Shown here in pieces: positions 12,883-61,978 of a stretch of DNA of 64,000 bases. Every line of letters starts with the position of its first letter. Position 1 is the first letter of the stretch. Origin of the DNA: Heptranchias perlo. Lineage: Eukaryota. Both the position numbers and the translations under genes were made by a program. The notes beneath the pieces were generated by a model. That model was given only the letters and a program-made list of their open reading frames with translations, was not told where the DNA came from and did no database searches. Location: assembly GCF_035084215.1 (NCBI RefSeq), contig NC_090341.1:15810001-15874000 (forward strand). The letters run 5' to 3'.

Positions 12883-15814
12883 ATTGTAAACAATTTTACA
12901 ACACCAAGTTATAGTCCAGCAATTTTATTTTAAATTCACAAGCTTTCGGAGATTTCCTCCTTCCTCAGGCAAATGTTTCAAGAGCTCCTTGAAGCCTACG
13001 CATTTATACATATTGAACAATACATGGTGTTTACAGACTGCCCCTGCAACTGCCCGTTGCCAAGGCAATCACCGTGTTCAGACAGAGAGGTGTCACCTGC
13101 AGAACCCCCGAATACACATTCAACAAAAAAACAAACAGGGAAAAAAAACAGAGAAAAAAAAAACACAGAGAGAGGCAGAAACATCCGGAAGGCAGAGAGA
13201 GCCAGCAAATGACCCATTATATTAAAAACAGATAACATTTGTTCGCTGGTGGGGTAACGTGTAGCGTGACATGAACCCAAGATCCCGGTTGAGGCCGTCC
13301 TCATGGGTGCTGAACTTGGCTATCAATTTCTGCTCGACGATTTTGCGTTGTCGTGTGTCTCGAAGGCCGCCTTGGAGTACGCTTACCCGAAGGTCGGTGG
13401 ATGAATGTCCATGACTGCTGAAGTGTTCCCCGACTGGGAGGGAACCCTCCTGTTTGGCGATTGTTGCGCGGTGTCCGTTCATCCGTTGTCGCAGCGTCTG
13501 CATGGTCTCGCCAATGTACCATGCTCTGGGGCATCCTTTCCTGCAACGTATGAGGTAGACAACGTTGGCCGAGTCACAGGAGTATGAACCATGCACCTGG
13601 TGGGTGGTGTCATCTCGTGTGATGGTGGTATCTGTGTCGATGATCTGGCATGTCTTGCAGAGGTTACCGTGGCAGGGTTGTGTGGCGTCGTGGACGCTGT
13701 TCTCTTGAAAGCTAGGTAGTTTGCTGCGAACGATGGTCTGTTTGAGGTTGGGTGGCTGTTTAAAGGCGAGTAGTGGAGGTGTGGGGATGGCCATAGCGAG
13801 GTGTTTGTCCTCATTGATGACATGTTGAAGGCTGCGGAGAACATGGCGTAGTTTCTCCGCTCCGGGGAAGTACTGGACGACAAAGGGTACTCTGTTGGTT
13901 GCGTCCCGTGTTAGTCTCCTGAGGAGGTCTATGCGATTTTTTGCTGTGGCCCGTCGGAACTGTCGATCGATGAGTCGAGCGTCATATCCCGTTCTTACTA
14001 GGGCGTCTTTCAGCGTCTGTAGGTGTCCATCGCGTTCCTCCTCGTCTGAGCAGACCCTGTGTATTCGCAGGGCCTGTCCATAGGGGATGGCCTCTTTGAC
14101 GTGGTTAGGGTGGAAGCTGGAAAAGTGGAGCATCGTGAGGTTGTCCGTGGGCTTGCGGTAGAGTGAGGTGCTGAGGTGCCCGTCTTTGATGGAGATTCGT
14201 GTGTCCAAGAAAGAAACTGATTCTGAGGAGTAGTCCATGGTGAGCTTGATGGTGGGATGGAACTTGTTGATGTTATCGTGTAGTCTCTTTAGTGATTCCT
14301 TGCCGTGGGTCCATAGAAAGAAAATGTCGTCGATGTATCTGGTGTATAGTGTTGGTTGGAGGTCTTGTGCAGTGAAGAAGTCCTGCTCGAACTTGTGCAT
14401 GAAAATGTTGGCGTATTGGGGTGCGAATTTGGTCCCCATGGCTGTTCCGTGTGTTTGGGTAAAGAACTGGTTATCGAAGGTGAAGACATTGTGATCCAGG
14501 ATGAAGCAGATGAGTTGTAGGATGGCTTCCGGAGATTGGCTGTTGTTGGTGTTGAGTATTGATGCTGTCGCAGCGATGCCGTCATCGTGGGGGATACTGG
14601 TGTATAGTGCCGAGACGTCCATCGTGGTGAGAAGTGTTCCTGGTTCAACTGGTCCGTGGGTACTGAGTTTTTGTAGGAAGTCTGTAGTGTCACGACAGAA
14701 GCTGGGGGTTCCCTGTACGATGGGTTTCAGGATGCCCTCGATGTATCCAGAGAGGTTCTCACACAGGGTTCCGTTGCCTGATACGATGGGACGTCCGGGT
14801 GTGTTGGCTTTGTGTATCTTTGGGAGGCAGTAGAAGTCTCCCACGCGGGGATTACGTGGGATGAGAATGCGTAGGATGCTTTGAAGGTCTGGATCGAAGG
14901 TCTTGATCAGTTTGTTGAGCTGGTGGGTGTGTTCTTTGGTCGGATCTGCGGGTAACCGTCTGTAGTGTTCCTGGTTGTCCAGTTGTCGGTATGCTTCTTT
15001 GCAATAGTCTGTTCTGTTCTGTATGACTATGGCTCCTCCTTTGTCCGCTGGTTTGATGACGATGTTGCGGTTGGTCTTGAGAGCGTTGATGGCGTTGCGT
15101 TGTGCTCGGGTGACATTCTGGACTGTCTTCTGAGTGCGGCTGATGAATCTGGCATTGACGCATTTCCTGACAGCTTGAGCATACATGTCCAGCTGAGGGC
15201 AGCGACCCTCCGGAGGAGTCCAGTTTGACTCTTTCCTCTTCGGTTGCTGTACCGCGGATCCCTCTGTCTGCTGTTCCGGATCGTCGATTGTCTCATTGGG
15301 TTCGCTGCTGAAATCTTGGGGTTTGTGGTAGAATTCCCGGAGCCTCATTCTCCTGATGAATTCCTCTGTGTCCGCCGCGAGACTAGTGGGGTCCATTTTG
15401 GTAGTGGGGCAGAAATTGAGCCCTCGGCTGAGAACTTCGATTTCGTCTGGTTGAAGGGTGTGGTCGGATAAATTGACAATAGACTTCCCTGTGGTTGCAA
15501 CCGTGGTACCAGGGGAAGCTTGGTCGTTGCTGGTGGTGATGCCGAGTTTCTCAAGCTTCCTGCTCTTGGTTTTCATGTAGGCAGCGTAGTTCCATTGCCT
15601 CGTCTGTTTGGCGGTATAACGTAGCTGGTCTGCTGTGTCCTGAGTACAGGTTGAGAGTATGGACTCTATCTTGGTTTCGAGGTTGTGGCGTCTGCTGTAG
15701 AGTTGGTGTATGAGATGGTTGCGGAGTGTGCGAGAGGTACGGCGGCAGAGTCTCTCAGCGTAATCCGAGTTGTATGTGGACTTGAGTGGGTTCGTGATCT
15801 GGAGTCCTTTCGGG
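12883..15814 (-). mobile_element. Penelope-like element (Neptune-type), 5'-truncated, young
   Basis: Flanked by 11-bp duplication ATGTGTTTACA (12872, 15815); long open ORF plus 3'UTR containing a hammerhead. Confidence 0.95.
12935..12973 (-). ncRNA. Minimal type I hammerhead ribozyme (PLE 3'UTR)
   Basis: UUUGC CUGAGGA A GGAG-GAAAU-CUCC GAAA GCUU GUGAA. Confidence 0.85.
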
Positions 15815-15831
15815 ATGTGTTTACAGCCCAA
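13222..15831 (-). CDS. PLE reverse transcriptase + GIY-YIG endonuclease (first codons host-derived, native start missing)
   Basis: YCLPKIHK, MDVSALYTSI, GTAMG, RYIDD, YRKPT RT motifs; CHGNLCKTC Zn-finger-like linker; VVYLIRC...WYIGET...RMNGH...GLN GIY-YIG; no stops in 869 codons. Confidence 0.95.
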   Translation of the reverse strand: MGCKHIPKGLQITNPLKSTYNSDYAERLCRRTSRTLRNHLIHQLYSRRHNLETKIESILSTCTQDTADQLRYTAKQTRQWNYAAYMKTKSRKLEKLGITTSNDQASPGTTVATTGKSIVNLSDHTLQPDEIEVLSRGLNFCPTTKMDPTSLAADTEEFIRRMRLREFYHKPQDFSSEPNETIDDPEQQTEGSAVQQPKRKESNWTPPEGRCPQLDMYAQAVRKCVNARFISRTQKTVQNVTRAQRNAINALKTNRNIVIKPADKGGAIVIQNRTDYCKEAYRQLDNQEHYRRLPADPTKEHTHQLNKLIKTFDPDLQSILRILIPRNPRVGDFYCLPKIHKANTPGRPIVSGNGTLCENLSGYIEGILKPIVQGTPSFCRDTTDFLQKLSTHGPVEPGTLLTTMDVSALYTSIPHDDGIAATASILNTNNSQSPEAILQLICFILDHNVFTFDNQFFTQTHGTAMGTKFAPQYANIFMHKFEQDFFTAQDLQPTLYTRYIDDIFFLWTHGKESLKRLHDNINKFHPTIKLTMDYSSESVSFLDTRISIKDGHLSTSLYRKPTDNLTMLHFSSFHPNHVKEAIPYGQALRIHRVCSDEEERDGHLQTLKDALVRTGYDARLIDRQFRRATAKNRIDLLRRLTRDATNRVPFVVQYFPGAEKLRHVLRSLQHVINEDKHLAMAIPTPPLLAFKQPPNLKQTIVRSKLPSFQENSVHDATQPCHGNLCKTCQIIDTDTTITRDDTTHQVHGSYSCDSANVVYLIRCRKGCPRAWYIGETMQTLRQRMNGHRATIAKQEGSLPVGEHFSSHGHSSTDLRVSVLQGGLRDTRQRKIVEQKLIAKFSTHEDGLNRDLGFMSRYTLPHQRTNVICF

Positions 15832-15862
15832 CGAGGAAGGAAGCAGTGCTGTATCTAGTTAT

Positions 15863-16121
15863 TGTAAACAATTTTACAACACCAAGTTATAGTCCAGCAA
15901 TTTTATTTTAAATTCACAAGCTTTCGGAGGCTTCCTCCTTCGTCAGGTAAATGTTCAGGAGCTCCTTGAAGTCTACCTGAAGGAGCTCCTGAACATTTAC
16001 CTGACGAAGGAGGAAGCCTCCGAAAGCTTGTGAATTTAAAATAAAATTGCTGGACTATAACTTGGTGTTGTAAAATTGTTTACAATTGTCAACCCCAGTC
16101 CATCACCGGCATCTCCACATC
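15863..16121. mobile_element. PLE-derived hairpin element
   Basis: 105-bp inverted arms (15863-15967 / 15980-16084), 37-nt tail ending CTCCACATC, 12-bp TSD GTATCTAGTTAT. Confidence 0.95.
15996..16034 (+). ncRNA. Minimal type I hammerhead (mirror copy on - strand at 15913-15951)
   Basis: UUUAC CUGACGA A GGAGG-AAG-CCUCC GAAA GCUU GUGAA. Confidence 0.85.
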
Positions 16122-17701
16122 GTATCTAGTTATGGGGAATTAAGTGGAGCATATTTCAATGGGGGAGTATTTGGAGAATAGTGATCATAATATCATCAGG
16201 TTTAGAATAGTTATGGAAAAGGACAAGGAACAATCAAGCGTAAAAATAACTTCAGTGAGTTAAAAAGGGATCTTGCCCAGGTGGATTGGAATCAATAATT
16301 GGTAGGCAAAACAGTAATTGAACAATGGGAGGCCTTCAAACAGAAGATGGTTTGGGTACAGAGTAGACACAGTCCCACGAAGGGGAAAGGAAGGGCATCC
16401 AAAGCTAGAGCTCCCTGGATGACCAAAGATATAGAGATTAAAATTAAACAGAAAAAGGAGCTTATGACAGATATACGGTTCATAATACAGTAGAGAACCA
16501 AGCTAAATACAGAGCAGATCTAAAAAAGGAATAAGATTGGCAAAGACAGAGTATAAGAATAGTTTGTTGGCTAACATAAAAGGGAACCCAAAAGTCTTTT
16601 ATAAACATATATATAAATAGTAAAAGGGTAGTCAAAGGAAGGGTGGGGCTGATTAGGGACAAAAAAGATCTTCTTGTGGAGGCAGAGGGTATGGCTGAGG
16701 TACTAAATGAATACTTTGCATCGGTCTTCACTAGAGAAGAGGATGCTGCAAATGTAACAGTAAAGGAGGACGTAGTAGCGATATTGGATAGGATAAAAAT
16801 AGATAAAGAAGAGGTACTTAAAAGATTGACAGTACTCAAAGTGGAAAAGTCAACCTGTCCAGATGGGATGCACCTAGGTTACTGAGGGAAGTAAGGGCGG
16901 AAATTGCGGAGGCTCTGGCCACAGTCTTCCATTCCTCCTTCAGATATGGGGGCAGTGCCAGAGGACTGGAGGATTGGAAATGTTACACCTCGGTTCATAA
17001 AAGGAGAGCGGGATAAACCTGACAATTACAGGCTAGTCAGCCTAATGTAGGGAAACTTTTAGAGATAATAATCCAGGACAAAATTAATTGGCACTTGGAA
17101 AAATGTGGGCTGATAAATGAAAATCAGCATGGATTTGTTAAAGGAAAATCATATTAGACTGACTTGATTGAGTTCTTTGATGAAGTAACAGAGATGGTTG
17201 ATGAAGGTAATATGGTTGATATGTATATGGACTTTCAAAAGGCATTTGATAAAGTACCACATAATAGACTTGTTAGCAAAATTAAAGCCCATGGAATTAA
17301 AGGGTCAGTTGCAGCATGGATACAAATTTGGCTAAGGGCCAAAAAGCAGAGAGTAGTGGTGAACGGTTGTTTCTCAGACTTTTCAGTGGTGTTCCCTAGG
17401 GGTTGGTATAAGGACCACTGCTCTTTTTGACATATATTAATGACCTGGACTTTGGTATAGAGGGTATAATTTCAAAGCTTGCAGATGACACGAAACTCGG
17501 AAATGTCATAAACAGTGGGGAGGATGGTGACAGACATTAGGAGGATATAGACAGACTGGTGAAATGGCAGATGAAATTCAGAGAAGTCTGAAGTGATACA
17601 TTTTGGTAGGAAAAATTAGGAAATGCAATATAAACTAAATGGTACAATTTTAAAGGGAGTGCGGGAACTTTGAATACTTTGCGCCTGTCTTCACAAAAGA
17701 A

Positions 17702-18333
17702 TTGTAAACAATTTTACAACACCAAGTTATAGTCCAGCAATTTTATTTTAAATTCACAAGCTTTCGGAGGCTTCCTCCTTCGTCAGGTGAACGATGTGAA
17801 AATGAAAACCTCGAAATGAAATCGCATTTATAATTCACAGAACAATGCTTGGTGAGTACAGACAGTTTTTTCAACTGCCCGTTGCCAAAGCAATCAGTGT
17901 GCAGACAGACAGGTGTTACCTGCCAGGTCTCACAGAATATACAAATCACCAAAAAAAAAACAACAAACAAAAAAAAACAGAGATAGAGAGGTAGAAACAT
18001 ATGTTTCTACCTCTCTATCTCTTTTTTTTTGTTTGTTGTTTTTTTTTTGGTGATTTGTATATTCTGTGAGACCTGGCAGGTAACACCTGTCTGTCTGCAC
18101 ACTGATTGCCTTGGCAACGGGCAGTTGAAAAAACTGTCTGTACTCACCAAGCATTGTTCTGTGAATTATAAATGCGATTTCATTTCGAGGTTTTCATTTT
18201 CACATCGTTCACCTGACGAAGGAGGAAGCCTCCGAAAGCTTGTGAATTTAAAATAAAATTGCTGGACTATAACTTGGTGTTGTAAAATTGTTTACAATTG
18301 TCAACCCCAGTCCATCACCGGCATCTCCACATC
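17702..18333. mobile_element. Large PLE-derived palindrome
   Basis: ~300-bp arms with no spacer (centre GAAACAT|ATGTTTC, 18000/18001), 36-nt tail, TSD (TC)TTCACAAAAGAA. Confidence 0.95.
18208..18246 (+). ncRNA. Minimal type I hammerhead (mirror copy on - strand at 17753-17791)
   Basis: UUCAC CUGACGA A GGAGG-AAG-CCUCC GAAA GCUU GUGAA. Confidence 0.88.
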
Positions 18334-18502
18334 TTCACAAAAGAAGGGGACGATGCAGACATTGTAGTTAAGGAGGAGGAGTGTGAAATATTGGATGGGA
18401 TAAACATAGTAAGAGAGGAAGTAGTAAAGGGTTTAGCATTTTTGAAAGTAGATAAATCGTCAGGCCCGGATGAAATGTATCCCAAGCTGTTAAGAGAAGC
18501 AT

Positions 18503-18759
18503 GATGTGGAGATGCCGGTGATGGACTGGGGTTGACAATTGTAAACAATTTTACAACACCAAGTTATAGTCCAGCAATTTTATTTTAAATTTCTAATGAT
18601 TTAGACTTAAATGTAGGGGACATGATTAAGAAATTTGAAGATGATACTAAAATTGGCCGTGTGGTTGACAGTGAGGAGGAAAGCTGTAGACTGCAGGAAG
18701 AGATCAGTGGACTGGTCAGGTGGGCAGAAAAGTGGCAAATGGAATTCAGTCCTGAATTT
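18503..18759. mobile_element. Chimeric insertion: PLE 3' end (~89 bp, - strand) + 162-bp copy of 19328-19489
   Basis: Direct sequence comparison; AAGCA at both flanks (18497, 18760). Confidence 0.9.
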
Positions 18760-20867
18760 AAGCAAGGGAGGAAATGGCAGAGGTTCTGACCATCATTTTC
18801 CAATCCTCCCTGGCTACAGGCATGGTGCTGGATGATTGGAGGACTGCTAACATTGTACTGTTGTTTAAAAAGGGAGAAAGGGATAGACCGAGTAATTACA
18901 GGCCAGTCAGCCTAACCTCGGTGGTGGACAAATTATTGGAAAAAATTCTGAGGGACAGTATTAATCGTCATTTAGAAAGACACGGATTAATCAAAGACAG
19001 TCAGCATGGGTTTGTTAAGGGAAGGTTGTGTCTGACTAATTTGATTTAATTTTTTGAGGAGGTAACAAGGAGCGTCAATGAGGGTAGCGCGTTTGATGTC
19101 GTCTACATGGATTTTAGCAAGGCTTTTGACAAGGTCCCACATGGCAGACTGGTTGAAAAGGTGAAAGCCCATGGGATCAAAGGGAAAGTGGCAAGTTGGA
19201 TCCAAAATTGGCTCATTGGCAGGAAGCAAAGGTTAATGGTCGACGGGTGTTTTTGTGACTGGAAGGCTGTTTCCATTGGGGTTCCGCAGGGTTCAGTATT
19301 AGGTCCCTTGCTTTTTGTGGTATATATTAATGATTTAGACTTAAATGTAGGGGACATGATTAAGAAATTTGAAGATGATACAAAAATTGGCCGTGTGGTT
19401 GACAGTGAGGAGGAAAGCTGTAGACTGCAGGAAGAGATCAGTGGACTGGTCAGGTGGGCAGAAAAGTGGCAAATGGAATTCAGTCCTGAGAAGTGTACGG
19501 TAATATATTTGGGGAGGGCAACCAAGGCAAGGAGCCACACAATAAATGAGAGGATACTGAGAGATGTAGAGGAACAGAGGGACCTTGGAGTGCATGTCCA
19601 CAGATCCCTGAAGGTAGCAGGACAGATAGATAAGGTGGTTAAGAAGGCATTCTAGCCGAGGCATAGAATATAAAAGCAGGGAGGTTATGCTAGAACTGTA
19701 TAAAATACTAGATAGGCCACAGCTTGAGTACTGTGTATAGTTCTGGCCACCACATTACAGGAAGGGTGTGATTGCACTAGAGAGGGTGCAGTGGAGATTT
19801 ACGAGGATGTTGCCAGGATTGAAGAATTTTAACTATGAGGAAAGATTGGATAGGCTGGGAATGTTTTCTTTGGAACAAAGGAGGCTGAGGGGAGATTTAA
19901 TTGAGGTGTATAAAATTATGAGAGGCCAAGATAGAGTGGATAGGAAGGACCTATTTCTCTTAGCAGAAAGGTCAATAACCAGGGGGCCTAGATTTAAAGT
20001 AATTGGTAGAAGGATTAGAGGGGAGCCGAAGAGAACCTTTTTTATCCAGAGGGTGGTAGAGGTGTGGAACTCACTGCTTGAATGGGTGATAAAGGCAGAA
20101 ACCCTCATCACATTTAGAAAGTACTTGGATATGCACTTGAAGTGCCACAACCTACAAGACTACAGACCAAGTGCTGGAAAGTTGGATTAGGCATGATAGC
20201 TCTTTTATGGGCCAAATGGTCTCCTTCTGTGCTGTAAATTTTCATGGTTCTATGATTCTATGAGGAACAGAGAGACCTGGGAGTGTACATACACAAATCT
20301 TTGAAGGTGGCAGGACAAGTTGAGAAAGGTGTTAAAAAAGCAAATGGGATCCTTGGCTTTATTAACAGAGGCATAGAGTACAAAAGCAAGGAAGTTTTAC
20401 TAAACCTTTAATAAAACACTGGTTAGGCCTCAGCTAGAGCATTGTGTTCAATTCTGGGCACCACACTTTAGGAAGGATGTCAAGGCCTTAGAGAGGATGC
20501 AGAAGAGATTTACTGGAATGGCACCAGGGATGAGGGACTTCAGTTATGTGGAAAGACTGGAGAAGCTGGGGTTGTTCTCCTTAGAGCAGAGAAGGTTAAG
20601 AGGAGATTTGATAGAGGTGTTCAAAATCATGAATGGTTCTAATAAAGTAAATAAGGAGAAACTGTTTCCAGTAGCAGAAGGGTCGGTAACCAGAGGACAC
20701 AGATTTAAGGTGATTGGCAACTGAGGCGACATGAGAAAACTTTTTTTTTAAGCAGCGCGTTATTATGATCTGGAATGCACTGCCTTAAAGGGTGGTGGAA
20801 GCAGATTCAGTAGTAAGTTCAAAAGGAATTGGATAAATATTTGAAGGGAAAAAAATTAAAGGGCGTT

Positions 20868-23911: not shown

Positions 23912-24389
23912 ATCCTGCAAATATCTATGCAAATAATGAGGTTAAGTTGGGGAACATTGAAATTTACGGATTTGATTATGATTATACTCTTGCACAATAT
24001 TCCAATTCAGTGCACACAATGATCTTTGACACTGCACGAGAAATCCTGATTGATCAATACAAGGTAAGTTATTTTTGATTCTTTTTAAAATGATTACACT
24101 GATTTCTTCAAGCCTATTGACAGTGCTGCTAAATATTACAGTAGAACCAACATTATCCACCACAATGGAATGGATCCTGTTGGTAGATAATGGAAATTGG
24201 AGGATAATTGAGAATCTCTACATTTTAGTCTTGCACGTATGGTACTCAGGTACCCTAGCCATGGGAATAAAGGTAAGTTTAATACAAATAAGATAAATTG
24301 AATTCAATCTTTCTTTGGCTGTGAGGTTAATTTATTTTAGAAAAATTGATGTTAATGGGCTATGAAATGAGGCCACGTTTTATACAAGT
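23912..24389 (+). pseudogene. Partial duplicate of NT5DC2 exon 2 plus start of intron 2
   Basis: Identical by eye to 25411-25888 (478 bp); lacks the acceptor and first 33 nt of the exon. Confidence 0.95.
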
Positions 24390-24480
24390 ATTTTTCATCA
24401 CAATAAACAAAACTTAACTATGTGTTTCCAGTCATGTATTTTTCATCACAATAAACAAAACTTAACTATGTGTTTCCAGT
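24388..24480 (+). repeat. 45-bp tandem duplication at the duplication breakpoint
   Basis: gtatttttcatcacaataaacaaaacttaactatgtgtttccagt twice, separated by CAT. Confidence 0.95.
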
Positions 24481-29670: not shown

Positions 29671-29721
29671 AAAGGAAAAATGTATCTTTTGCACGTCAGT
29701 AACGCATCATTTGTACTCTGA

Positions 29722-29855
29722 TGTAAAAACAGAAAATGCTTATCCGGATGAAGGGCTTCCACTTGAAACATTAATCTGTCTTCTCTTTCAGATGCTGATA
29801 GAAGGCGCATTTCCTGGGGGTTTTCCTTCTGATTTTCAACATTTAGTTTTCTTTG
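29722..29855 (+). mobile_element. Degenerate PLE family B 3' end
   Basis: ccggatgaagggcttccacttgaaacattaa (decayed hammerhead) followed by cagatgctg...gattttcaacat tail. Confidence 0.5.
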
Positions 29856-31165
29856 TATCAGTAATTTGATATTTTTCACTGTGATTTTATTATTTTTGAA
29901 TCCCGTGCTACAATCTGAGTATTCTGTGCAATGTATTATTACATCGCTGAGCAGTGAAATTACTCATGCTTACAGTATAGAGGATAATTAATGGCTATAG
30001 GGAGCTCCCTAATGATGGTGATTTATTAGTGTCTTATTTGTTAGTAGCACAGTGCTTCCCTTGCTCAGCAGCAGCTGGCTGAAGCCAACTGATTTGGTAT
30101 GATTAATGCAGTTCATTCAGGAAACGAGTAAAGTCAGCTAGTACATAGGCTAGTAAGCACCAGATTTAGCTTGTAGCCTTGAATTATACAGCATATTTTC
30201 TTATTGAAGAGCTCAACATGAATGCTGTAATTAATAGTCAGGTCTTGAAATTCTGCTGTATGAATATATATGAATGCTTAATGCTTCTGTCAAATGAGGG
30301 ACAAAGGTATCTATAATATCGAAGCTTCAATTGTTTGCTTAGTTTGTGCCAATACCAAATCAGGTGTTGATGCTTTGGCCTAGGATTATATGCACACACT
30401 TGATTTAGGAAGACACAGTGGCAGCCATATTGGCTTTTATTGCGATGAAGTGCTGCAATGGGTAACAGTGCAAGCGATTTCTTGTAGATGGGGTTCTAAG
30501 ATTCTTTCTGTTGAATTGAATGAGGAAAATAGTACAAGTGCGGCACTGTTAGGAGATACTCAGACATTACCTCCCTTCCATTTGACATCACATTGGGTTC
30601 CACAGTATAATTGAGGCATAACACAAAACAAGATACACAAAAATGATAACTCCTGAAAAACAGAAGCAAGTGAAAAATAATAGCAGGTAATTGTTAAAGT
30701 TTATTAGTAAAGCCTAATTTATATTAATTATATAAAATATAATTTTAAGAAACATAATATGGTTAGACAGGTTTCAATACTTAGAAAAGCCTGGAGAAAT
30801 ATTAGGTTTGCCTTGAAAGAAAACATTTCAAATTCCCTTGTAACTAATAAAATCCAGTTGGAGCAATACCTTATGAGGTAATTAATGAGAATCCTACTCA
30901 TCCTGGTGCCTGGCTTAAAGAATAATGTACTTTATATATTTTTTTAAAAATGGGTCCTGTTGTATTTAAGAATAAGGTGTTACCAGTTCTCAGTCAGCTC
31001 TCAGAAGCATGCAGAACAGTGATATTTCACCTGTCTCGTCCTGCAAAACAAGTGTGCCTTCTTTCAATTACATGTGGGAGACAACAGACAAATGTTGTGC
31101 TAAATGCTGTATTTTATTTAAAACTTTTTTTGTTTACCTTGAATATTTATCCCTATTTCTTTTAG

Positions 31166-46872: not shown

Positions 46873-47233
46873 GATGTGGAGATGCCGGTGATGGACTGGG
46901 GTTGACAATTGTAAACAATTTTACAACACCAAGTTATAGTCCAGCAATTTTATTTTAAATTCACAAGCTTTCGGAGATTTCCTCCTTCCTCAGGCAAATG
47001 TTTCAAGAGCTCCTTGAAGCCTACGCATTTATACATATAGAACAATACATGGTGTTTACAGACTGCCCCTGCAACTGCCCGTTGCCAAGGCAATCACCGT
47101 GTTCAGACAGAGAGGTGTCACCTGCAGAACCCCCGAATACACATTCAACAAAAAAACAAACAGGGAAAAAAAACAGAGAAAAAAAACAGAGAGAGGCAGA
47201 AACATCCGGAAGGCAGAGAGAGCCAGCAAATGA
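46873..47233 (-). mobile_element. 5'-truncated PLE 3'UTR with full tail and hammerhead (46960-46998, -)
   Basis: Near-identical to 12880-13213 plus the GATGTGGAGATGCC... tail; short AGGAG flanking repeat. Confidence 0.92.
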
Positions 47234-54044: not shown

Positions 54045-54440
54045 CAAAAGCAAAATACTGCGGATGCTGGAAATCTGAAATAAAAACAGGAAATGCTGGA
54101 AATACTCAGCAGGTTAGGCTGACAAGAGGGATGATGGTGCAAGGCAAAGGGGGTGGTAATGGGACAAGTAATGAAATAAAAGATGGGTCTAGAGGAGCTG
54201 TAAATGGCAACAGCAGAACCAATACCAATACCTGCTTAAAAAAAATGGGAGCAGTGGTTATGATCTGAAGTTGCACCCTAAGCTTTCAATCGCTTGCCAT
54301 TTTAATTCTCCGTCCCACTCCCACTCTGACCTCTCTGTCCTCGGCCTCCTACACTGTTCCTATGAAGCTCAACAGAAGCTCGAGGACCAACACCTCATCT
54401 TTCGATTAGGCACTTTACAACCTTCCGGACTCAACATTGA
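54045..54440. mobile_element. PLE family B rearranged fragment
   Basis: Tail caaaagcaaaatactgcggatgctggaaatctg (- strand) joined to + strand GIY-YIG C-terminus HFNSPSHSHSDLSVLGL...LEDQHLIFRLGTLQPSGLN. Confidence 0.8.
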
Positions 54441-56165: not shown

Positions 56166-57184
56166 GTCAGAACAATTGGTCCGTGTTTAGTGCTACAGTG
56201 TGTTTTCCAACATTCCCTTGATCTGTATTGCATTGCTGGGATCATATTCTCTGATGTTTACTAATGTTGGTCAGCATGAAGTGGGAAACCTGCCTTATAC
56301 TCAAGCTGACTTTTTCGGTAGACTTCATAAATGGAGAAAAATATACGTCAAGGCTGTTTTTCTTCTTGTAAGTTGAACCGTAGACTAAAGCTGGAGAAAG
56401 ACTGGTCTTACCAACTATGTTTCTCTAACTGGTTATAGTTAAATTAATTACCCATGTTGAATATTTCAGTACTGCTCGAGCCAAGAGCGTGAGGCTAAAA
56501 AAAGATTTAAAGAAATCAAACTTTTCAGATTAGGGGTGGGATTTTTTAGGGTAGTTTGGCAGGGGGGGGGAGAGAAAGGAAAAACACTGCAGCGATAACA
56601 TTGGAGGCGATTGTTTTGGAAAATAAATAACTTTTAAAACATTTGATTGATTATACAGTTCACTGGATTTTTGTTGGGTTCATGCAGAAGTAAGAAAAAG
56701 TCAAAGAATAAGGACAATTTAAGTCTACCAATGTGTAAAGCAGTTCTGTTTGATTTCCTCCCCCACTTCAACTCTACTGAGTCTCCAATTGGCATTTCCC
56801 AAGCAGTGAGGAACAAATGATGGAGAGTCATTGCTGGACTTTCTTGGGCCTGATCAGGACCAGCTTTGAGTGGCATTGCTGGAGGCCTGGGAGGAAGGCA
56901 AGGGAAATACTTGGCCAGTTCCGAAGTGTACTGGCTCAGTACCTGCAGTTCAGCAGCCAAGATGAGAAGGGGTGTTAACCTGAAGCATTTTCCACTCTAC
57001 TTGCCCTCTGAGCAAAATCAGCTGGCCAACTTGCTCCCTGCTGGTGTGGGGAGCTTGCAAAATATATGGAAATAATTCCTTCTTATAGGAGATATCTTTA
57101 TATTCCCTCCCCATGGAGTTTCCAGCAGAAGGGAAACTTAGAATATCCCCTATAAGAAGGGCCGCTTTCTATATATTGTGTTTT

Positions 57185-59500: not shown

Positions 59501-61772
59501 ACATGTGAATAACTTTCTACTCAGTAATTGTTTCATATAATTTCTTTACAAACAGAAACTAAATCCATCAAAATTGGCTTTTTAGGAATAAACCATGGGA
59601 GTTCCTACACAAAAGGGAGACCGTTGGCTCATTGAGCCTGTGCAGCTTGCTCCTTTATGTAAGCACTGCTCACAATTAGCATGTAAATCACTTCAGTGCA
59701 ACGGTGAATTCCTTTTATGCAGAATGGGCAGCGCTTGGAAAATAGAGAGGTACAAAATATTTCTAAACAGTCAAACGCTGGTTTCTGGCTGTAAATTCTC
59801 ATCATTATGCATCAACCTTTGAACATAGAAGATGGAAACGTGACAAACGGAGAAGGGAGAAATTTGAAATACAACAGCGGACTGTATGAGATTCTAACTT
59901 TTAAACTTCAGTCTGCATGTTGCCATGTGGAAAAATGCATATGTGGAGGTAACTAGAAGGTTGTTATTCAGATGAAGGACTCTAATGGTGCCACAGAGTG
60001 TGAGAATGCAACAAAAGAAGGTTCTTAGTTACAGCAAGCTGTAGGATTGAATTACAGCCTTTAAGTCCTTTAAAAACATGTAGTATTTCTTGTCATATGC
60101 GCCAACTGACTTTGCAATGAAGCAAGGTATTAGGAACTGTGCCAACACAAGGGCGCTACTGCAGAAACTGGGTGCTTGGAGGGGAATGCTAATGACTGTT
60201 AGAGGCAGTGCCCTGATAGTGAGAACAAACCTCATCTTTGATTCACAGGACAGTATAATAATTAGTCTGGAGAATAATTGTGGACGTATTTCAAAATTTT
60301 ATCTGGTATAGTAGTCACTCATTGATTAGCTGCATCATCTTTTCAGTGTGTAAACTAGAACAAACATATCAGTTTTTAATCTCAGCTTCTATAACTTTTA
60401 TTGCTGGACCATGCTTTGTGAGGATTGGAACAGAACTTGTAGTCAGATGTATTTCTGGATACGTATACATAGTTTGACAATGTCATGACTCAGTCAGTTG
60501 GGGAGCGGCAATCTGGCTCTGTCAATAACCCTGTCATATTTTAAACATGACTCTCAGTGAAATGCAGATCTGCTTTCCACCAGTTGCCTCTCACTTGCAG
60601 TTTGCACTGCATTTGAAATTTAATGCAGCAACAATGACAACTGGATGTGTGCTTTACAACGTAAAGGATGTCTGTGCTTGGGAAGAGAATATCTTCCTCA
60701 TTTTTGCCATCCATTGTCAGATATAGCATGGGCTTAAGTGTATCAGTGTGAAATACCATTCCCTTGCTGTCAATTTCACACATGCCAACCGTCTGCATTT
60801 CACGTGAACAGTCAGCATTTTGGAGTTAGTATCTGCTTCTGTGTGTTTGCAGATGAAAATCGGCACTGCTTCCAGCTCCTACCTGATGCTGCTGTTCCAG
60901 GGGATGGAACTCTGCTGCACGTTGTGGATGGGATTTTTCACAGGAGTTTTGTGAGATCAGGAATTCCTGCCCATACCGTGCCACAATAGCAGCAGCATAA
61001 GGTAGGAACCAGGAGGGTAGAAAGGTGCCATCAACTCTGATAATTGTATGCATCCGATGAATGAAAACAGCTGGAATCTCTACTGACTGACAATAGACAG
61101 TGAACATATTCAATCTTACCACAATCTTCACCATTTGTCTGTTCAAATGACAAAACAGTTCTATAAGTAGCCTGAATGCGCTCACTGGGTGAGTGGTGCA
61201 ATGACAGGCTGCACTGATGGGCAATAAGATGTGAGAGTCTCCCCAGCTCAAGTTCCCAAAGTCAAGCAAAAGTCCTCTGCATAAGGCAATCCCATAAGAG
61301 TGACAAAGAAAAACCGAAAGAAGAGCAAACTCGCATTACTAATGCACACCCAGCTCCTGACCATTTACAGGGAGCGGCATTGGTGGGAATTAGGTGCATA
61401 AGACTGTAAGTAAATAACTTTAGGAACAGGACACAAAATAAGGTCAACACAAAAAACCATGGCATGTTAAAGAAAGGCACAACTTTTTCATATCACTAAG
61501 TCTGTTCAATTTCTGCAATGTAATTGACAGCTTCTTCGTTCTTTATAAGTATAATAACCTGTTAAAGTTGGCAGATTTTATTCCGTGCCTGTCGGACAAG
61601 GCCTGTGTTACCAGTAAGATTCTAAACTATGAGAAGAAAGATACTTGTAACACAAATTACTATGTAATTAAGTCTGTTTGACAAACCTTTAGCCCAGTTT
61701 ATGTTGCAGGTGTATATCTCTTTTGGCTTTGGAGCCTGAAGTGTTATATAAATTAATGCCAATGCAGGAAAG

Positions 61773-61978
61773 TGTAAGGAATCTTACAACACCAGGTTAT
61801 AGTCCAACAGTTTTATTTGAAAATCACAAGCTTTCGGAGCTTACCTCCTTCGTCAGGTGAGCGAAGGAGGTAAGCTCCGAAAGCTTGTGATTTTCAAATA
61901 AAACTGTTGGACTATAACCTGGTGTTGTAAGATTCCTTACATTTGTCCACCCCAGTCCATCACCGGCATCTCCACATC
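61773..61978. mobile_element. Hairpin element of a diverged PLE subfamily; intact hammerhead on - strand 61824-61860
   Basis: 80-bp arms (61773-61852 / 61862-61941), 37-nt tail ending CTCCACATC, TSD AATGCAGGAAAG; UCAC CUGACGA A GGAG-GUAAG-CUCC GAAA GCUU GUGA. Confidence 0.92.

What the first reader, a model, noticed from the sequence alone, without database searches (positions are those of the whole stretch)
15851..18345. Stereotyped hairpin insertions: TSD, inverted arm without tail, direct arm, 36-37-nt tail, TSD
Seen: at 15863-16121, 17702-18333 and 61773-61978 the left arm always starts at the same nucleotide (TGTAA...), the right arm alone carries the tail, arm lengths differ (105, ~300, 80 bp), and TSDs are ~12 bp. 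Established: inverted partial repeats and a ~35-nt 3' tail are known for Penelope. Inference: each hairpin is the product of two priming events from opposite strand nicks, one starting at the RNA end and one at a fixed internal site. They would then be one-off integration products rather than MITEs; alternatively they propagate as retrozyme-like units.
Basis: partly seen in the sequence, partly recalled or inferred. Interest (0 to 1): 0.7.

Follow-up and report, generated by a model that had tools for sequence, protein, structure and literature searches.

The report
Hairpin stubs of Penelope-like retrotransposon
These hairpin-shaped repeats are short, dead-end insertions of a Penelope-like jumping gene, a known pattern, but their neatly matched arms give a testable clue to how this poorly understood class of elements inserts.

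Summary
The three hairpins are real. Each has a target-site duplication (TSD) of 12-14 bp, a tail-less inverted arm, and a direct arm with a 37-nt tail. They are the 3' ends (pseudo-LTR with a minimal hammerhead motif) of a high-copy Penelope-like element (PLE). A nearly full copy with an open RT + GIY-YIG frame lies 37 bp left of the first hairpin. Inverted copies, a one-sided 30-40-nt tail and palindromic junctions are published PLE features, and the two tail ends correspond to two RT start sites shown in vitro. The hairpins differ in pseudo-LTR sequence and centre, so they look like one-off products, not a MITE or retrozyme family. Both ends also occur on non-hairpin copies here, which supports two priming events. 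The left start is fixed only to within about 2 nt. Independent truncation does not explain this; copying one RNA twice, or snap-back of the tail-less cDNA, does. No genome was held, so the genome-wide test is open. Known kind; modest interest.

The parts
15851..15862 (.). Hairpin A left TSD (12 bp), inside a CR1-type LINE
   Evidence: LINE label from my knowledge of such repeats; no repeat library was searched
15863..15976 (-). A: inverted tail-less arm, 114 nt, with hammerhead core at 15946-15922
15977..15979 (.). A: 3 junction bases; with the next A they match the 4 bases that follow TAC at the hammerhead (24-nt near-repeat 15957-16004), so possibly a templated slip
   Evidence: reading inferred
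15980..16084 (+). A: direct arm, 105 nt, hammerhead core 16001-16025
16085..16121 (+). A: 37-nt tail
16122..16133 (.). A right TSD
17688..17701 (.). Hairpin B left TSD (12-14 bp)
17702..18000 (-). B: inverted tail-less arm; ends at the same base as the right arm, no loop
18001..18296 (+). B: direct arm, hammerhead core 18213-18237
18297..18333 (+). B: tail (last 2 nt shared with TSD)
18332..18345 (.). B right TSD
61760..61772 (.). Hairpin C left TSD (12-13 bp)
61773..61860 (-). C: inverted tail-less arm, 88 nt, of a diverged variant (13 of 116 differences to A and to B)
61862..61978 (+). C: direct arm (80 nt) plus tail; one extra G at 61861
61978..61990 (.). C right TSD
12883..15814 (-). Near-full-length, 5'-truncated PLE of the same family: open RT + GIY-YIG frame (13222-15816, 864 aa, about 38 N-terminal codons missing), 3' pseudo-LTR, tail-less end, no inverted arm; TSD 11 bp at 12872-82/15815-25
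18503..18759 (-). Tailed 89-nt stub (18503-18591) joined to a 162-bp duplicate of nearby LINE sequence (19328-19489, 99.4%); 5-bp TSD 18497-501/18760-64
46873..47232 (-). Solo tailed pseudo-LTR, 98.5% identical to the long copy; possible 5-bp TSD
9698..9887 (.). Fourth, older hairpin of a different repeat family with the same plan (tail-less left arm, tailed right arm, 10-bp TSD 9688-97/9888-97); PLE origin inferred from anatomy only

Best explanation
Each hairpin is a single, severely 5'-truncated integration product of an endonuclease-bearing Penelope-like retrotransposon (Neptune-type by linker motif). Shown in the sequence: identity with the element's 3' pseudo-LTR, exact TSDs, one tailed and one tail-less outer end, and arms that end within 0-9 nt of each other at tiny self-complementary motifs. 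Inferred mechanism: the GIY-YIG domain nicks both strands about 12 bp apart. One target 3' end primes reverse transcription at the internal start site, at the foot of a small stem-loop 37 nt before the tail end. The other primes at the tail end. Both cDNAs are copied from the same RNA, the trailing one displacing the leading one, and stop at about the same point. Their 3' ends are identical in sequence, so they can anneal only at a local palindrome; they join there and are filled in, giving a hairpin. The product is dead on arrival and does not spread as a unit. Confidence that these are one-off PLE insertion products is about 0.93; that two target-primed cDNAs are involved, about 0.8; the figure given is for the full same-RNA, end-to-end annealing model.
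For: Family identity: 9 matches in the window, forming 3 inverted pairs and 3 single copies, one with an 864-aa RT + GIY-YIG frame; closest named proteins are from sharks, 80-95% identical. Both ends work alone: 1 tail-less and 2 tailed single copies. In another organism's contigs (run X9) one contig ends at the same tail base, and 81 contigs of run X1 run on into the tail. In vitro, a Poseidon PLE cuts and extends both strands and starts RT at two sites that bound the tail; the main site lies 111-118 nt from the hammerhead-located ORF start (PMC11167929). Here the tail ends 118 nt and the tail-less end 81 nt from the equivalent hammerhead position. Coupling: arm ends differ by 9, 0 and 8 nt while lengths span 80-298; a rough log-uniform null gives 1e-5 to 5e-4 for three such pairs. 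Both arms of each hairpin are the same variant (C arms 0 of 80 differences, C versus A 11 of 80). Exactly one arm is tailed in 3 of 3 hairpins, 4 of 4 with the second family. The extra centre bases in A and C belong to the tail-less arm, so the tailed cDNA alone cannot have templated them, and the tail cannot come from the tail-less cDNA: two cDNAs are needed. The junction palindromes have loops of 0-2 nt (B: TA, consistent with loose-end letters; C: TCA-GG-TGA; A: GT-CT-AC), tight for self-priming but fine for two identical strands.
Against: Only 3 hairpins of this family (4 with the other family) were examined, and no genome was held. In the fourth hairpin the tailed arm is the longer one at the centre, against the trailing-RT detail, although that copy is old (arms 84% alike). 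Junctions A and C carry 3 and 1 extra bases, so the microhomology reading is not clean. One opposite-strand joint with ends 227 nt apart (13495/13722, 7 shared letters, not at a restriction site) exists in run X1, so strongly asymmetric inversions probably also occur; its orientation is unknown. The in vitro data are from a Poseidon element, not a Neptune-type one, and did not show hairpin products in the text I read. Strand displacement on a shared RNA is not shown. The null model for arm length is my assumption.
Confidence: 0.55

Rival explanations
1. Snap-back plus strand transfer: the internally primed cDNA folds back on itself, copies its own arm, then switches onto a short tail-primed cDNA on the other target end to pick up the tail. 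It also needs two priming events, but arm matching comes from self-priming.
For: Explains matched arm lengths directly. The native centre bases in A and C lie on the tail-less strand. A's extra bases look like a local templated slip. Self-priming was proposed for palindromic PLE junctions (PMC3846280).
Against: B has no loop at all, and A and C have 2-nt loops, which are poor for intramolecular priming. In the fourth hairpin the longer arm is the tailed one.
Confidence: 0.27
2. One priming event plus processing: a tailed cDNA, or an antisense template, self-primes into a hairpin, and the element's endonuclease cuts it at a fixed site to create the tail-less end.
For: [quoted passage not shown] The tail-less end abuts ATT in A, B and the long copy, the motif preferred by the anole endonuclease (PMC11167929).
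Against: The tailed strand lacks the 8-9 centre bases that the other arm has in A and C. A tail-less end occurs on a plain non-inverted copy, with target bases matching the element at the junction. Variant C has TTT at that place. Both ends are RT start sites in vitro.
Confidence: 0.12
3. An independently mobilised non-autonomous family: MITE-like hairpins or retrozyme-like units that copy themselves as units.
For: Small size, inverted repeats, TSDs and a hammerhead motif. Animal retrozymes are reported to derive from PLE pseudo-LTRs (bioRxiv 10.64898/2026.07.22.740005). Some joints in run X1 have several times the depth of others, so recurrent rearranged copies may exist.
Against: 3 of 3 hairpins differ in length, centre and pseudo-LTR variant. 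TSD length varies and the ends are asymmetric. There are no tandem hammerhead units (12 tandem rows, none of this kind). Each strand of a hairpin has at most one sense hammerhead, and C's right arm lacks the 5' core.
Confidence: 0.05

Closest known systems
Canonical EN+ Penelope-like elements with an inverted 5'-truncated copy and a one-sided 30-40-bp tail (PMC3846280, PMC8557442, PMC8969392; passages read)
   Same: Pseudo-LTR with minimal hammerhead, inverted head-to-head copy, tail on one end only, palindrome at the junction, TSD of about 10 bp, frequent 5' truncation
   Different: Here the whole insert is reduced to two near-equal arms of 80-298 nt with no ORF between them; the near-equal arm ends are not discussed in the passages I read
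Anole Poseidon element PAc in vitro (PMC11167929; abstract, main text and part of Methods read)
   Same: Two RT start sites bounding the tail, both strands cut and extended, similar distance from the hammerhead (118 nt)
   Different: This element has the CX4CxxC linker of Neptune/Nematis; the reading frame from the hammerhead position is closed by stops; hairpin products were not reported in the text read
L1 twin priming (PMC2912911; passages read)
   Same: Two target ends prime on one RNA, one at the 3' end and one internally; the cDNAs anneal at short complementarity; TSD kept
   Different: In L1 the internal site varies and the two pieces mostly cover different parts of the RNA (recalled, not from a call); here the site is fixed 37 nt from the end and both cDNAs cover the same sequence
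Non-LTR retrozymes (bioRxiv 10.64898/2026.07.22.740005, part 1 of 5 and passages) and MITEs (PMC8969392)
   Same: Small non-coding repeats; hammerhead (retrozymes) or inverted repeats (MITEs)
   Different: No tandem units, no uniform length, no transposase parent; the arms are retrotransposon 3' ends

Membership tests
EN+ Penelope-like elements | Single ORF with RT and C-terminal GIY-YIG endonuclease in the parent element | tested here: met
   RVT_1 E 3e-10; GIY-YIG E 7e-4 on the C-terminal 175 aa, 20.3 bits against a cut-off of 22.6; many homologs carry PF01541
EN+ Penelope-like elements | DKG motif; CCHH motif with two cysteines between GIY and YIG | tested here: met
   ADKGG and VVYLIRCRKGCPRAWYIG with downstream histidines in the translation; definition from PMC8557442
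EN+ Penelope-like elements | Minimal hammerhead in the pseudo-LTR | tested here: met
   CUGANGA, stem II, GAAA, palindromic AAGCUU and stem I in 7 arms or copies; Rfam found nothing at gathering score; cleavage not tested
EN+ Penelope-like elements | One-sided 30-40-nt tail, inverted truncated copy, TSD | tested here: met
Neptune/Nematis clades | CX2-5CxxC zinc finger in the RT-EN linker | tested here: met
   CHGNLCKTC precedes the EN; absent from Penelope/Poseidon per PMC8557442
Neptune/Nematis clades | Placement in an RT phylogeny | not tested
   no tree built
Non-LTR retrozymes | At least two tandem units each with a type I hammerhead | tested here: not met
   definition
MITEs | Derived from a TIR DNA transposon; symmetric ends; uniform copies | tested here: not met
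   the arms are the PLE 3' end, the ends are asymmetric, and 3 of 3 differ
MITEs / mobilised non-autonomous family | Same centre recurring at many loci | not testable with these tools
   no genome; assembled short-read contigs showed only 15 of 146 joints and palindromic centres assemble poorly
L1-type twin priming | Both cDNAs come from one RNA molecule | tested here: inconclusive
   matched arm ends and same variant fit it, but snap-back fits too

The most novel reading that the evidence does not exclude
PLEs routinely copy one RNA twice: an RT dimer primes both target strands from two fixed start sites 37 nt apart, the trailing enzyme displaces the leading cDNA, and the two identical cDNA ends join at local palindromes. 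Use of the internal site may go with a wide (10-14 bp) nick stagger and tail-only priming with a short one (5 bp). This would be a specific mechanism for the long-unexplained inverted, one-tailed PLE structure.
Probability: 0.35. Interest if true: 0.55.

Novelty: new member of a known kind. Interest (0 to 1): 0.27.

Why it matters
As a structure this is known PLE debris, and it matters mainly for annotation: such hairpins can be mistaken for MITEs. How PLEs make inverted, one-tailed insertions is still open; the papers read offer self-priming, endonuclease resolution and internal initiation without settling it. A young, very abundant family with short, clean hairpins lets the models be separated by simple counts: tail status of both arms, offset of the arm ends, loop strand and TSD length. 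An open-frame copy is also at hand for an ordinary in vitro assay.

Tried and rejected
Own genome: none held. A 24-nt family motif in metagenome contigs: 0 matches. The C-terminal protein in metagenome contigs: 1 weak locus of 123 candidate stretches (L001, 29%), not used. Rfam: no match at gathering score. PDB sequence search: 0. No RNA holder is on record; X5 is only guessed to be RNA, so nothing is said about expression. Contig joints as a hairpin census: rejected. Only 15 of 146 joints and 12 of 42 rows with letters between were shown. Of the 24 distinct joints listed, 9 have both ends within 4 nt of GATC/GANTC/CTNAG/TTAA sites, which cover about 10% of positions, so they look like proximity-ligation artefacts. 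Depth falls about 19-fold from the 3' to the 5' bin in X1, which fits 5' truncation but is not a copy number. Covariation of the stem-loop at the internal start: one pair changes on both sides between the two variants, but with 2 distinct sequences 262 of 500 shuffles match it; my outer helix was misplaced (8 of 12 cells unpaired). RNAalifold chose another register with no compensatory pair; fold z-scores were -3.25 for A and -1.11 for C. Treated as a lead only. Hammerhead cleavage as the turning point: rejected, since the centres of A and B lie about 20 and 210 nt upstream of the core and C's lies in its 5' part. Whether the tail directly precedes the ORF start: unresolved (one copy shows ATG after the tail). 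Palindromes at 2267-2317 and 57058-57180 are not of this family. Literature searches found no paper that quantifies arm-length matching. The library lacks most subscription papers, including the 2004-2006 PLE papers, and the supplementary figures of PMC11167929 gave no usable text, so this may be in print.

Full report
Observation. Exact TSDs are 12, 14 and 13 bp, with 0, 2 and 1 bases shared with the tail end. Arms without the tail measure 114/105 (A), 298/296 (B) and 88/80 nt (C), and only the right arm has the 37-nt tail. Rebuilding the empty sites restores continuous LINE sequence for A (254 nt, 85%) and B (325 nt, 68%); C's target had no partner in the window. The left start is fixed to about 2 nt, not to one base: offsets are 0, -1, 0 and, in the long copy, -2, with 2-3 target bases matching the element in three of these four.

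What it is. Searching the window with B's right arm gives 9 matches: 3 inverted pairs and 3 single copies. [quoted passage not shown] It lacks about 38 N-terminal codons relative to a full-length relative. Its closest named relatives are shark proteins. It has the DKG and CCHH motifs and a CX4CxxC linker, which places it by motif with Neptune/Nematis rather than Poseidon; no tree was built. The hairpin arms are the 3' end of this family's pseudo-LTR and contain a minimal hammerhead motif of the kind described for PLEs; Rfam does not detect it. The family is abundant: 70,194 contigs of one run were laid on the long copy.

One-off products. A, B, C and the long copy are four different pseudo-LTR variants. 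A and B are identical over the last 116 nt but differ upstream; C differs from them at 13 of 116. Centres and lengths are all different. No tandem hammerhead units exist. This argues against a MITE or retrozyme family, on three examples only.

Two start sites. The tail-less end also terminates the long, non-inverted copy, and the tailed end terminates two other single copies. One contig from another organism stops at the same tail base. PMC11167929 (abstract, main text and part of Methods read) shows that an anole PLE cuts and extends both strands and starts RT at two sites bounding the tail, the main one 111-118 nt from the hammerhead-located ORF start. The distances here are 81 and 118 nt. 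The internal end lies at the foot of a 6-bp stem-loop present in both variants, but two sequences give no statistical support.

Within each hairpin the arms end 9, 0 and 8 nt apart. A rough null of independent truncation gives 1e-5 to 5e-4 (the null is my assumption). In A and C the extra centre bases belong to the tail-less arm while the tail belongs to the other, so neither cDNA alone can template the whole insert. The junctions fall at tiny palindromes with loops of 0-2 nt, with 3, 0 and 1 extra bases. I infer two cDNAs from one RNA, annealed end to end (0.55). Snap-back of the tail-less cDNA followed by transfer to a tailed cDNA is the main rival (0.27). Single priming with endonuclease resolution (0.12) and an independent mobile family (0.05) fit worse. 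Against my reading: the fourth, older hairpin of another family (9698-9887, 10-bp TSD) has its longer arm on the tailed side, and one opposite-strand joint with ends 227 nt apart exists in the contigs.

A side pattern. TSDs are 10-14 bp in 5 of 5 insertions with a tail-less end (one from the second family) and 5 bp in 2 of 2 tail-only copies of the main family. A 5-bp match may be chance, and the second family's single copies were not checked.

Comparison with what is known. An inverted 5'-truncated copy, a 30-40-bp tail on one end and palindromic junctions attributed to self-priming are all described (PMC3846280, PMC8557442, PMC8969392; passages read). L1 twin priming uses one RNA, two primers and microhomology between the cDNAs (PMC2912911, passages); the case here works like it but with a fixed internal site and fully overlapping arms. 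Retrozymes need tandem units (bioRxiv 10.64898/2026.07.22.740005, part 1 of 5 and passages). PMC4209133 was read as passages. PMC9977147 and bioRxiv 10.1101/2024.12.14.628481 were read as passages and not relied on. Four searches found no paper that quantifies arm matching, but key subscription papers and the supplementary figures of PMC11167929 were not visible. Earlier AI notes on other genomes reach the same verdict; they are leads, not support.

Verdict. A real feature and a new member of a known kind: the shortest form of the standard PLE inverted insertion. Interest 0.27, for the testable mechanistic clue rather than for the structure.

Noticed in passing
window 9698-9887; single copies 54045-54119 (-) and 8906-8953 (+); decayed 29717-29900: A second repeat family with the same hairpin plan: about 35-nt one-sided tail, 3' half of a hammerhead-like motif, 10-bp TSD. 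Probably another PLE family; no ORF found for it.
   Followed up: partly
window 18503-18759: A tailed PLE stub joined to a 162-bp, 99.4% duplicate of LINE sequence about 730 bp downstream (19328-19489), all inside a 5-bp TSD; looks like a locally templated insertion made during integration.
   Followed up: partly
window 12883-15814: Near-complete PLE with an uninterrupted RT-endonuclease frame, inserted 37 bp from hairpin A in the same LINE; four family insertions lie within 6 kb (12.9-18.8 kb), all in LINE sequence.
   Followed up: partly
window 2267-2317: Small local inversion-duplication inside a LINE-like repeat, consistent with a template switch.
   Followed up: no
window 57058-57180: Weak (70%) palindrome of unknown origin, possibly an old inverted-repeat element.
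   Followed up: no
run X1 laid on window 12850-15830: 9 of 24 listed joints have both ends at common restriction sites, so they are probably proximity-ligation chimeras; two short joints (12915/12890, 12918/12889) end near the internal start site and may be tiny partial tandems.
   Followed up: partly
window 24388-24480: Perfect 48-bp tandem duplication (1.9 copies).
   Followed up: no
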